Shown one piece after another: positions 21,601 to 24,600 of a stretch of DNA of 64,000 nt (its first letter is position 1; every line of letters starts with the position of its first letter). Source of the DNA: Escherichia coli (GTDB lineage Bacteria; Pseudomonadota; Gammaproteobacteria; Enterobacterales; Enterobacteriaceae); assembly GCF_016903815.1 (NCBI RefSeq), contig NZ_CP069973.1; one strand, given 5' to 3'. The position numbers are program-made.

Positions 21601-24600
21601 ATTCAGGGATGGCACGGGTAGAGGGCGAATTATTCAAAATTGCTCTGGCATCGCTGGAAGCAGAGCCAGTTGGTGATTTTTATGAATACAAACCGGATGA
21701 CTGGTATCAGCGTTCGGCTGGAGATAAAGCGCCAAAATGGACGCCACCCTATGCCGTTTTTCCAGCGCCCGTAGTGCCGGAAGAAATGGATTTGCTTACA
21801 TGCCATCTCGATGGTGTAACTGAAACATATGCTGAGGGATGGAACGCTTGCCGCGCTGCCCTGCTTCAGGGCAAAGGGGAGCCCGGGAAACAAGTTCGCG
21901 AATTGACAATGCTGGTTAAACAATTGGTTAGTCAACTGAAGAAACCGAAACCGGGCTGCAAATTGCCGGATAAAGTGATGGACTACCTGGAGCGAAGCGG
22001 ACTTATAAGCGTGGAGGATGTTTTACGATGACCTGGCCTGAAGCATTCACAACGGTAGGAATTGCGATGGCGGTGGCGCTGGTGGTGTATTCGATTTGCC
22101 GCTGGGGTTGATAATACTAAATAACCAGCCCTTATGGGGCTGGCTAATCATTTAGAACTGTTCATTGCCATCGAGGTTAGGTAGCATAATTTTTTCAATC
22201 AAGGCGAGAGCCTTTTTGTCCCGGTCAGCGAAGTATTTCGGGGCATATTGCGGCAACCAAATATTGTTAAAATGTTCTTTGAAATCTGCTAAATATTCAT
22301 TTGGGTACAGCCTTGCAGGGTATACGCGACCATCGGGATATTCATGGTCATAGGTAGGGAATGTTTTGGGTTCTACGTTTCTATTATCTCTTAACCATTG
22401 TGAAAATACTCTTCCTTGTGAAATGTCAGGAACCATTTTTTCTGGGAGTGTGTACCCTGCTTGTTCAAGAGGTGCAACCAAGTTGAATGTCAGTTCATTA
22501 AGAATAGAAAAGTGCGTGTGAGGAATTCTACTACGATTAACCATGTACCGTTTTAAATGTACAGGCATTTCTGCTGTAGTTCTTTCCCCTGACATCCATT
22601 CACGAACCCATCTTGAAACCTGGACTGCAAATTTGGGCGATAGCCACTGCGCTAGATTAATAGCGATGTCAGGATGCACCCATGTCCCTTGGTTTTCAGG
22701 TCTTCCACCTTTAAATGATTGAATTAACTCCGATATGGGAATTCCCATATCGCGTGATAATTCGTCAAAAAACTCTTGAGTAGTTTTGAGTCTAGTGTAA
22801 TCAGAGAGCAGTTTGCCCGCAGTTCTACACATTGATGTGGCGTTTATGTAACCATCTTTGGCACGTAAATGTATTATTTCGCCGTCAATTTCACGAGAAA
22901 TCAAAGATAATTGAAAGGATGTCATTGAAAATTCCTCAAGTTGGAGAGTTCTGGAACATTAAGGCGAGGTGGCAGTAATGCACCATCTGTAATCTTTTGA
23001 TACTGACGTAATCGGGCCTGATGTGCAACGCCTTGCAAGTATGTAACTCATTGAAAACGATCATTTTTATCTATTGACATCAAATGGCAAACTGTCATTG
23101 TGCGGCTATGGCAAGTGGCAAATGCTTATAAATCATATGGATATAAATAGTACAGAAAGAGTTGTTTTCTCTAGGATATGAGTATACGCCCAATGCTGAT
23201 TGGTTGAATTTTGTTCTTGTTTTAAAGGGTAAGAGTTTAAAGTGTTGGCAGTGATGTATTGGATAGTTAGAATTGCTGTGGGTGCTTGAGGCTATCTGCC
23301 TCGGGCATGAACACCAAAGGTAGATAGAGAAAAGCCCCAGTTAACATTACGCGTCCTGCAAGACGTTTAACATTAATCTGAGGCCATATCTATGCGACAC
23401 ATAGAGATTAGCCTCTTACGGACCGAAAGGTCAAGGAGAAGCAGGCTATGAAGCAGCAAAAGGCGATGTTAATCGCCCTGATCGTCATCTGTTTAACCGT
23501 CATAGTGACGGCACTGGTAACGAGGAAAGACCTCTGCGAGGTACGAATCCGAACTGGCAGACGGAGGCTCTGATTCGTAGACTACTAATCTGAGTAAAAG
23601 ACCCAGCGGGGAAAGAACCACGCCGGGACTAGTTAATAAGATATTTATAGCGTGGCTATTCTTTTTTTGCGGTATAGACTTTTTCGCCTGAGAAGTCTGG
23701 AGCTACCCAAAAGTTAATATTAAACTGAGCATCATCGCTTAGTTCAACACGGTGCCAGTATTGTGGTGGGCTTGTTGCAAAAGCGCCAGCATTAATGACT
23801 ACTTTTATCTCCGGTTCAGTAGCATTCTCATCAGCAAAACCATAATATGTTACAGTACCTTCCATCACGCATAACTGTCCAAAAACACCTGCTGCTGTAT
23901 TATGATGTGTTAATAACGCTGAAGGTACGTTCTCTTTTGTGAAGAACGGAGTTGAGCGTTTGATTACCCAGTCTTTAGGAATTCTCTTGTGTGTCATAAC
24001 CACCTCCCATAAAACATGCATTATAAATGCACCTTTTTGAGGGTTATGTCAAGCTGTTATGAAACACATAATTGATATGTTGATTAGAGGAGAAGATAGA
24101 ATCAATATGGTTGTTTTTCGTATAACTATTTGTTTTACTTTTAGTTTGTGCATTCTGTGTGTTAGGAATAACTTATTAAAGTTTAACTAAAAAATCTCGA
24201 TATAGTCCGCATAGATTACTGTTACTGAATCTTATTGTGTGCATTAGTTGTGTTCTGAAATTTCAATTTAATTACTTATGATATATTTTTAACGATAAAT
24301 GTTTTCCGGGTTAAAGACAGTGGGGGATGAGATAAGCAATATATCATTAATCTTGATTATTTCCAGGATGCCTTTACTGTGCATATAAATAAATCATATA
24401 CGCATCAAATAATGTAAAGGCATCCTTTTAGATATATCTTATCAAATGTTAATGATTTGAGTGGGAAACATGATTCCAGAAACTAATCATGCGGCTACTT
24501 TATAAAAATAATGCCCATATAAAACAGCCAGCGAAAAGGATTACGGATAAAAAAGGAGCGAGATGTGCATAGTTGTTATTTTCCATGTTTAACCACCTTA

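What the first reader, a model, noticed from the sequence alone, without database searches (positions are those of the whole stretch)
24365..24426. Perfect 13-bp inverted repeat with a 36-nt AT-rich spacer in the non-coding island
AGGATGCCTTTAC (24365-24377) and GTAAAGGCATCCT (24414-24426) are exact reverse complements, followed by TTTTA. This could be the 3' hairpin of a small RNA, a protein-binding operator or a recombination site. No ORF of 60 aa or more covers the region.
Basis: seen in the sequence. Interest (0 to 1): 0.35.

Follow-up and report, generated by a model that had tools for sequence, protein, structure and literature searches.

The report
Prophage hairpin, probably a transcription stop
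The inverted repeat is real and not due to chance, but it is an ordinary single-locus hairpin in the non-coding spacer of an E. coli prophage cargo gene, most likely a weak transcription stop or RNA-end structure, not a new kind of element.

Summary
AGGATGCCTTTAC (24365-24377) and GTAAAGGCATCCT (24414-24426) form a perfect 13-bp inverted repeat, the longest in the 64-kb window. The T-run is four bases and includes the last arm base.

The repeat is the outer stem of a 62-bp quasi-palindrome, with an inner 8-11-bp stem. It lies in an AT-rich, ORF-free spacer of a lambdoid E. coli prophage. The spacer travels only with a reverse-oriented YeaR-like (DUF1971) cargo gene.

The element is single-copy, present in about 464 of 5426 E. 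coli genomes, and always in this context. It has no Rfam match and no relative found by a covariance model.

Its sequence changes about as fast as the rest of the spacer, yet all ten haplotypes still fold. Three pairs changed on both sides. That points to base pairing rather than a protein operator, but the support is modest.

It is the only strong hairpin followed by a T-run on the + strand of the island. It mirrors the cargo gene's own terminator on the other strand.

My best reading, at about 0.35 confidence, is a weak + strand intrinsic terminator that insulates the downstream NinB/Q operon. Rivals are a − strand mRNA 3'-end hairpin and a functionless palindrome.

More interesting by-products are a canonical NsrR operator at 24013-24035 and an unannotated, conserved 28-aa ORF at 24500-24586.

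The parts
24365..24377 (.). Left arm of the outer stem (AGGATGCCTTTAC)
   Evidence: Sites 24368-24370 vary among haplotypes.
24414..24426 (.). Right arm of the outer stem (GTAAAGGCATCCT)
   Evidence: Sites 24419, 24421 and 24422 vary; 24421 and 24422 compensate changes at 24370 and 24369.
24378..24413 (.). The 36-nt spacer. It holds an inner stem 24380-24387/24397-24404 with an apical loop of 9 nt, and an asymmetric internal loop or bulge at 24405-24413. In B-type haplotypes the inner stem becomes a perfect 11-bp palindrome with a 5-nt loop, in a shifted register.
24426..24429 (+). TTTT run at the 3' foot of the hairpin on the + strand. It is invariant in all haplotypes. There is no T-run after the hairpin on the - strand.
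24040..24497 (.). AT-rich non-coding spacer that carries the hairpin. It is found only together with the DUF1971 gene. It is not homologous to the upstream regions of chromosomal DUF1971 genes, and no ORF in it is conserved.
23656..23997 (-). DUF1971 / YeaR-like cargo gene (113 aa as annotated in RefSeq) to which the hairpin is always linked
23599..23630 (-). Terminator-like hairpin (-17 kcal/mol, tail TTTTAC) just after the DUF1971 stop codon. It is the - strand counterpart that closes the other end of the module.

Best explanation
The repeat is the outer stem of a 62-nt interrupted hairpin that acts in RNA on the + strand. It works as a weak factor-independent terminator at the right-hand edge of a reverse-oriented prophage cargo module carrying a YeaR-like gene. 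Rightward transcripts could come from the AT-rich spacer, from divergent firing of the cargo promoter, or from upstream phage or hok transcription running antisense through the cargo gene. They would fold the inner stem first. The G+C-rich foot of the outer stem would then close directly against a short U run, releasing the transcript before it reaches the antisense small ORF and the NinB-like/Q-like operon. Shown here: the hairpin, its non-randomness, its retention, its position, and the absence of alternatives on that strand. Inferred: that it is transcribed and that it terminates.
For: - The hairpin is real and non-random.
- In a relaxed scan of 23560-24900 it is the only strong hairpin plus T-run on the + strand of the island (-22.1 kcal/mol). 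The only strong one on the - strand outside coding sequence is the terminator just after the DUF1971 stop, which has the same short TTTTA-type tail. The module is therefore closed at both ends by structures that stop outgoing transcription.
- The stem foot abuts the T-run, and the T-run and right flank are invariant in all haplotypes.
- The alternative cargo types at this hotspot (two hok types and iteAS) all end on the + strand with a hairpin plus T-tract shortly before the same backbone. A + strand hairpin plus T-run 360-520 bp upstream of the DUF1367 start recurs in most other backbone types.
- Pairing is kept across 10 haplotypes (-15 to -30 kcal/mol). Three pairs are hit on both sides, P about 0.009 by random placement of the variable sites.
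- A deletion of about 56 bp immediately to the left, present in roughly 310 of 464 genomes, leaves the hairpin exactly intact.
Against: - The U run is only 3-4 bases.
- The nominal loop is 36 nt, so the consensus terminator scan did not call it.
- No + strand gene or conserved ORF ends there, and promoter-like matches in the island are no more frequent than in shuffles.
- Covariation is weak by the shuffle control (40-64 of 500 shuffles reach the observed values), and RNAalifold gives a covariation term of only -0.64 kcal/mol.
- The substitution pattern does not favour either strand. The - strand fold is slightly more stable in the window haplotype.
- Sequence divergence in the element (5-8% between haplotype groups) is like that of the surrounding spacer and not far below the neighbouring dS of 0.12-0.14.
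- No transcript data were available.
Confidence: 0.35

Rival explanations
1. The hairpin acts on the - strand. It would be a stable stem-loop in the 3' untranslated region of the mRNA of the unannotated 28-aa ORF (24586 to 24500), 74 nt after its stop codon. It does not terminate by itself. Transcription would end further on, for example by Rho in the untranslated stretch where C exceeds G. Exonucleases would then trim back to the hairpin, which sets and protects the mature 3' end. It could also be an RNase III-type processing site.
For: - The small ORF is very probably real: 28 codons in all 90 instances and 12 DNA variants, a conserved AAGGTG ribosome-binding site, and pN/pS of 0.18/0.42.
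- The - strand fold is the more stable one in the window haplotype (-27.0 vs -22.1 kcal/mol).
- Every other cargo type also places a stable hairpin shortly after this stop codon.
- The + strand has positive GC skew across the spacer, so - strand RNA there has more C than G.
Against: - There is no T-run after the hairpin on the - strand.
- In the other cargo types the hairpins are already explained as terminators of + strand cargo genes.
- The hairpin belongs to the cargo, not to the conserved backbone that carries the ORF.
- Several haplotypes carry A-C mismatches on this strand.
Confidence: 0.2
2. The palindrome has no present function. It is a leftover, for example the terminator of a lost gene, or a product of mutation in a nearly neutral AT-rich spacer. 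Its apparent compensatory changes would come from template switching within a quasi-palindrome, which tends to perfect palindromes without selection.
For: - About 17% of sites in the element are variable, the same as the rest of the spacer. The backbone to its right has about 7%.
- Stems are not less variable than loops.
- Different haplotypes have perfected different parts: the outer stem in the window type and the inner stem in the B type.
- Some haplotypes are clearly weakened (-15 to -16 kcal/mol), and one metagenome contig has IS1 inserted into the right arm.
- Shuffle controls are not significant.
Against: - All 10 haplotypes still fold stably.
- The adjacent deletion spares the element precisely.
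- Its position mirrors the cargo gene's own terminator.
- Three double-sided changes are unlikely by random placement, P about 0.009.
Confidence: 0.3
3. The repeat is a DNA site: two half-sites of an operator for a dimeric regulator, or a site-specific recombination or mobile-element end.
For: The dyad symmetry is perfect. The arm resembles the NsrR half-site in 9 of 11 positions, and the linked gene belongs to an NsrR-regulated family (PMC5320621).
Against: - The arm scores 3.8 bits on an NsrR half-site matrix, below 52 of 54 known half-sites. A shuffled island contains about 32 equally good 11-mers.
- The half-site spacing is 40 bp instead of 1 bp.
- Haplotype changes fall in the ATGC core.
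- The real NsrR site is elsewhere, at 24013-24035.
- Arm-like sequences with up to 3 mismatches occur as often as chance predicts (16 vs 15.9), and none lies in the immunity region.
- The element is single-copy in every genome and never in another context.
- The mosaic junction lies about 70 bp away at roughly 24497.
Confidence: 0.07

Closest known systems
Rho-independent terminators of the lambda nin region (tR2-tR4), lying between the replication genes and Q (from my knowledge of lambda, not tested here)
   Same: It lies on the early-rightward strand between the replication module and a NinB-like/Q-like operon. It is a hairpin whose G+C-rich foot abuts a T-run. Comparable + strand hairpins precede the same operon in other prophage variants.
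   Different: The hairpin is much longer and interrupted (62 nt, nominal loop 36 nt). The U run is only 3-4 bases. It belongs to an exchangeable cargo module rather than to the phage backbone. No termination has been demonstrated.
Self-contained promoter-gene-terminator cargo units ('morons') of lambdoid prophages (concept from my knowledge)
   Same: The DUF1971 gene lies in reverse orientation with its own operator and promoter region and its own terminator. It sits at a hotspot that holds other cargo in related prophages.
   Different: A second terminator-like hairpin faces the opposite way at the upstream end of the unit, with about 330 bp of ORF-free AT-rich DNA in between. This is not part of the textbook layout.
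Protective 3' stem-loops of Rho-terminated mRNAs, and RNase III hairpins such as lambda sib (from my knowledge)
   Same: It is a long, stable, interrupted helix of about 21-24 bp downstream of a short gene on the - strand, without a U tract.
   Different: No 3' end or cleavage has been mapped. The hairpin is not conserved with the gene it would serve.
NsrR 11-1-11 operator (Partridge et al. 2009, as cited in PMC5320621)
   Same: The arm AGGATGCCTTT matches AAGATGCATTT at 9 of 11 positions, and the two arms have the same relative orientation as the two halves of an operator.
   Different: The matrix score is poor, the spacing is 40 bp rather than 1 bp, and the core varies between haplotypes. 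A true operator sits 330 bp away.

Membership tests
Intrinsic (Rho-independent) terminator | Stable G+C-containing stem that ends directly at the T/U tract | tested here: met
   The stem is 13 bp, perfect, with 6 G-C pairs. Its foot AGGATGCC/GGCATCCT abuts TTT. The hairpin is -22.1 kcal/mol.
Intrinsic (Rho-independent) terminator | Short loop (3-8 nt in the consensus scan) | tested here: not met
   The nominal loop is 36 nt, so the scan did not call it. An inner 8-11-bp stem reduces it to an internal loop plus an apical loop of 5-9 nt.
Intrinsic (Rho-independent) terminator | U tract of about 5 or more U within 8 nt after the stem | tested here: inconclusive
   The run is TTTT at 24426-24429, counting the last arm base, followed by AGATATAT. 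That gives 4-5 T in 8 depending on where the stem is taken to end. The cargo gene's own terminator has the same style of tail, TTTTAC.
Intrinsic (Rho-independent) terminator | Transcript 3' ends map to the U tract | not testable with these tools
   No transcript data are available for strains that carry the element.
Small regulatory RNA (3' hairpin of an sRNA) | Match to a described RNA family | tested here: not met
   An Rfam E-value search of 20000-29000 found only sok at 23280-23450.
Small regulatory RNA (3' hairpin of an sRNA) | Conserved promoter and conserved body upstream of the terminator | tested here: inconclusive
   A 9/12 promoter-like match at 24255-24282 is kept in three haplotypes. 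Such matches are no more frequent than in shuffles (4 found vs 5.1 expected). About 56 bp of the putative body are deleted in most genomes.
Dispersed palindromic repeats (REP/BIME-like, MITE-like) | Many copies per genome at unrelated loci | tested here: not met
   There is one place per genome in 464 genomes. All 43 viral and metagenome contigs that matched element-derived patterns show this context, one of them interrupted by IS1. A covariance-model search of 605 kb found no further member.
NsrR operator | Two 11-bp half-sites matching AAGATGCATTT, inverted, with 1 bp between them | tested here: not met
   The half-site score is 3.8 bits (training median 9.7) and the spacing is 40 bp (PMC5320621).
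Phage repressor operator | Related half-sites repeated in the immunity region | tested here: not met
   No arm-like sequence lies at 17740-17880. Matches with up to 3 mismatches number 16 against 15.9 expected.
Site-specific recombination site / module junction | Coincides with a breakpoint of homology between prophage variants | tested here: not met
   The breakpoints lie at about 23662 and about 24497. The repeat lies about 70 bp inside the module.

The most novel reading that the evidence does not exclude
The hairpin is the terminator of an unrecognised prophage non-coding RNA on the + strand. The RNA would be roughly 85-400 nt, depending on the start site and haplotype, and transcribed divergently from the NsrR-controlled promoter region of the YeaR-like cargo gene. 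A nitric-oxide signal would then switch on both a cargo protein and a phage-borne regulatory RNA.
Probability: 0.08. Interest if true: 0.5.

Novelty: new member of a known kind. Interest (0 to 1): 0.22.

Why it matters
The hairpin alone matters little. At most it shows how a reverse-oriented cargo gene is transcriptionally sealed off inside a prophage, so that stray transcription does not reach the late-gene activator. The surroundings are more useful:
- The cargo gene keeps a canonical NsrR operator, so this is probably a nitric-oxide-responsive prophage gene carried by about 8% of complete E. coli genomes.
- The conserved backbone next to it encodes an unannotated 28-aa hydrophobic protein.
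- The site is an exchange hotspot that holds anti-phage systems in related prophages.

Tried and rejected
- **NsrR half-sites.** The arm looked like AAGATGCATTT, and yeaR is an NsrR target. I built 11-bp and 23-bp matrices from the 27 CFT073 sites in PMC5320621. The arm scores 3.8 bits, and about 32 equally good 11-mers are expected in a shuffled island. Rejected.
- **Known RNA family.** An Rfam E-value search returned only sok.
- **Dispersed or mobile repeat.** The element is single-copy in every genome and always in the same context. A covariance model (R1) found no other member in 605 kb.
- **Regulatory element inherited with the DUF1971 family.** Homology to 80 chromosomal loci from other genera stops at about 24036, so the spacer and hairpin are not ancestral to the gene.
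- **Hidden gene in the spacer.** No ORF between 24040 and 24497 is intact or coding-like across 20 haplotypes. For example, the 43-aa ORF annotated in a phage record shows 4 synonymous against 16 non-synonymous changes.
- **Repeated operator.** There is no arm-like sequence in the immunity region or elsewhere beyond chance.
- **Terminal inverted repeats of a cassette.** A 17-nt, 82% complementary pair at 23633-23649/24429-24445 brackets the module, but it degrades to 11 of 17 in another haplotype by my reading of the alignments. Probably chance in AT-rich DNA.
- **Strand assignment from wobble versus mismatch asymmetry.** Five first-hit changes split 3:2, and haplotype counts are about equal on the two strands. 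Uninformative.
- **TGTGCAT motif cluster.** Five + strand copies lie at 24147-24627, one of them inside the spacer, but the copies are not conserved between haplotypes.
- **K-12 Qin as an annotated reference.** Its ydfU region differs, and the spacer, the hairpin and the small ORF have no counterpart there.

Full report
**Observation**

The arms AGGATGCCTTTAC (24365-24377) and GTAAAGGCATCCT (24414-24426) are exact reverse complements separated by 36 nt. One detail differs from the finding. The bases after the right arm are TTTA, and the TTTT run (24426-24429) includes the last base of the arm.

No ORF of 60 aa or more covers the region.

This is the longest perfect inverted repeat with a short spacer in the whole window. 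First-order Markov simulations produced a perfect repeat of 13 bp or more in 8 of 3000 islands and 7 of 200 windows.

Both strands fold much better than shuffled sequence. As RNA, the + strand gives -24.7 kcal/mol (z = -5.1) and the - strand -29.5 kcal/mol (z = -5.7). As DNA, z = -5.5.

The spacer is itself palindromic, with an inner stem at 24380-24387/24397-24404. The whole 62 bp is therefore one long interrupted hairpin.

**Context**

The window is part of an inducible lambdoid E. coli prophage. It is 100% identical to strain 7/2 and to phage vB_EcoS-666R9. The local gene order is:

- replication genes (+)
- a KilA-N gene (-)
- sok/hok (+), with the Rfam sok hit at 23280-23450 and a hok of only 41 aa
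- a DUF1971/YeaR-like gene (-, 23656-23997)
- an 840-bp AT-rich island
- DUF1367 (PHROG NinB/Orf-like), DUF1364 and a DUF1133 Q-like antiterminator (+)

Alignment with other E. coli prophages splits the island in two:

- **Right part (about 24497-24864).** This is conserved backbone, also found next to quite different cargo: iteA/iteS, or a nuclease plus methyltransferase plus hok.
- **Left part (about 24040-24497).** This part contains the repeat. It occurs only together with the DUF1971 gene.

The repeat region is in 464 of 5426 complete genomes, once per genome, and the gene is in 456. All 29 viral and 14 metagenome contigs recovered with element-derived patterns show this context, one of them interrupted by IS1.

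Homology to chromosomal DUF1971 genes of 80 other species stops at about 24036, so the AT-rich spacer is not ancestral to the gene. No ORF inside it is conserved across 20 haplotypes.

**Comparative behaviour of the hairpin**

I recovered ten haplotypes. About 11 of the 62 positions vary. That density (about 17%) matches the rest of the spacer and is about twice that of the backbone to the right.

Pairwise divergence between haplotype groups is 5-8% by my count on the alignment. The neighbouring dS is 0.12-0.14 for DUF1971 and 0.20-0.30 for DUF1367.

Pairing is nevertheless kept, and four pairs changed in ways that preserve or improve it:

| Pair | Change |
|---|---|
| 24369/24422 | T-A to T·G to C-G |
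| 24370/24421 | G-C to A·C to A-T |
| 24382/24402 | C-G to T·G to T-A |
| 24383/24401 | A·C to A-T |

In the commonest deletion-type haplotypes, three substitutions turn the inner stem into a perfect 11-bp palindrome in a shifted register. Every haplotype folds at -15 to -30 kcal/mol on both strands.

The statistics are modest:

- The shuffle control reaches the observed covariation in 40-64 of 500 trials.
- RNAalifold gives a covariation term of only -0.64 kcal/mol.
- Random placement of 11 variable sites hits three pairs on both sides with P about 0.009.

The wobble and mismatch intermediates do not favour either strand.

A deletion of about 56 bp immediately to the left (about 24307-24362) lies between the short direct repeats TTTCCGGG and TTTCCAGG. 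It is present in roughly 310 of the 464 genomes and leaves the hairpin intact. One metagenome contig has IS1 inserted in the right arm.

**What it is not**

- **Known RNA family.** Rfam returned only sok.
- **Dispersed repeat.** It is single-copy in every genome, and a covariance model found no relative in 605 kb.
- **Recombination site.** It does not sit at a mosaic junction.
- **NsrR site.** I followed up a resemblance of the arm to the NsrR half-site with matrices built from the 27 sites in PMC5320621. The arm scores 3.8 bits, lower than 52 of 54 real half-sites. The spacing is 40 bp instead of 1 bp, and the haplotype changes fall in the motif core.
- **Repeated operator.** Arm-like sequences occur at chance frequency, and none lies in the immunity region.
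- **Protein operator in general.** Co-varying arms argue against a dimeric protein operator and for base pairing.

**Most likely mechanism**

A relaxed scan of 23560-24900 for hairpins ending at a T-run found two strong candidates outside coding sequence:

- this hairpin on the + strand (-22.1 kcal/mol, tail TTTTAG)
- a hairpin on the - strand just after the DUF1971 stop codon (23630-23599, -17 kcal/mol, tail TTTTAC)

The cargo module is therefore closed at both ends by structures that would stop transcripts leaving it.

The alternative cargo types all end on the + strand with a hairpin plus T-tract just before the same backbone. A + strand hairpin plus T-run 360-520 bp upstream of the DUF1367 start recurs in most other variants. 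This position corresponds to the terminators of the lambda nin region, which precede Q (my knowledge, not tested).

I therefore commit, at about 0.35, to a weak + strand intrinsic terminator or insulator. It would keep rightward transcription out of the antisense small ORF and the NinB/Q operon.

Against this reading, the U run is short and the nominal loop is long. No + strand gene ends there, and no transcript data exist.

**Rivals**

- **A - strand stem-loop (0.2).** It would set or protect the 3' end of the small-ORF mRNA.
- **A functionless quasi-palindrome (0.3).** Its apparent compensation would come from template switching.
- **A DNA-binding or recombination site (0.07).**

**By-products**

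1. AACATGCATTATAAATGCACCTT at 24013-24035 is a canonical 11-1-11 NsrR site. It scores 26.3 bits against a training range of 10.4-30.5, and the next best in the window scores 11.5. It lies 16-38 nt upstream of the DUF1971 start. Such a site precedes the chromosomal homologues in 50 of 79 loci; the enterobacterial loci listed all have one, and the marine genera listed do not.
2. An unannotated ORF at 24500-24586 (-) encodes MENNNYAHLAPFLSVILFAGCFIWALFL. It is 28 codons long in all 90 instances and 12 DNA variants, has a conserved AAGGTG ribosome-binding site, and shows pN/pS of 0.18/0.42. It is absent from the protein collection.
3. The site is a cargo-exchange hotspot that holds anti-phage systems in related prophages.

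**Verdict**

The feature is real, specific to this locus and probably structural. It is an ordinary kind of element, and its function remains unproven. Interest is low, about 0.2.

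Noticed in passing
window 24013-24035: AACATGCATTATAAATGCACCTT is a canonical NsrR 11-1-11 operator. 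It lies 16-38 nt upstream of the DUF1971/YeaR-like start codon. It scores 26.3 bits on a matrix from 27 published sites, by far the best in the window. The equivalent site precedes chromosomal homologues in 50 of 79 loci from other species. The prophage cargo gene is therefore probably nitric-oxide responsive (PMC5320621).
   Followed up: yes
window 24500-24586, minus strand: An unannotated 28-aa hydrophobic ORF (MENNNYAHLAPFLSVILFAGCFIWALFL) with an AAGGTG ribosome-binding site. It is 28 codons long in all 90 instances and 12 DNA variants, with pN/pS of 0.18/0.42. It was found upstream of DUF1367 in 47 of 86 loci examined. It is absent from the 15-billion-protein collection, and its only PHROG hit is weak. 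It may be a small membrane protein or toxin.
   Followed up: partly
window ~23662-24497, with L004, L005 and L007: The slot between the replication genes and the DUF1367 operon is a cargo-exchange hotspot. Related prophages carry iteA/iteS anti-phage genes, or a nuclease plus cytosine methyltransferase plus hok, in place of the DUF1971 module.
   Followed up: partly
window 23280-23573: A sok antitoxin RNA (Rfam, 101.5 bits) lies next to a hok gene of only 41 aa. Its 3' end diverges from full-length hok after ...RTGQTE at about 23566, roughly 100 bp to the left of the DUF1971 module boundary (~23662). The toxin may be truncated.
   Followed up: partly
window 24646-24680 and 24779-24806: The conserved backbone holds a 14-bp inverted repeat (AATGTTATGATAAA/TTTTTCATAACATT, 7-nt gap) between the small ORF and DUF1367. 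It also holds a promoter-like TTTACA-16-TATACT (10/12) that is conserved in all variants. These are a candidate operator and promoter for the NinB/Q operon.
   Followed up: no
window 23599-23630, minus strand: A terminator-like hairpin (-17 kcal/mol, tail TTTTAC) lies directly after the DUF1971 stop codon. Other haplotypes have a stronger version.
   Followed up: partly
window ~24307-24362: An indel of about 56 bp lies immediately left of the hairpin, between the short direct repeats TTTCCGGG and TTTCCAGG. The deleted form is in roughly 310 of the 464 genomes that carry the element.
   Followed up: yes
L208:32-90 (metagenome contig): An IS1 end (…GGCAGCATTACC) is joined to GGCATCCTTTTAG. This is an IS1 insertion inside the right arm of the repeat (the IS1 identification is from my knowledge of its terminal repeat).
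   Followed up: no
window 24147-24627: Five copies of TGTGCAT, all on the + strand, lie within 480 bp, out of 12 in the whole window. One copy is inside the hairpin spacer. The copies are not conserved between haplotypes, so this is probably a compositional effect.
   Followed up: partly
window 24020-24052, minus strand: A perfect TATAAT (24025 to 24020, in the centre of the NsrR site) and a perfect TTGACA (24052 to 24047) lie 21 bp apart. That is too far for a standard sigma-70 promoter, so the actual -35 region or activator of the cargo gene is unclear (read directly).
   Followed up: no
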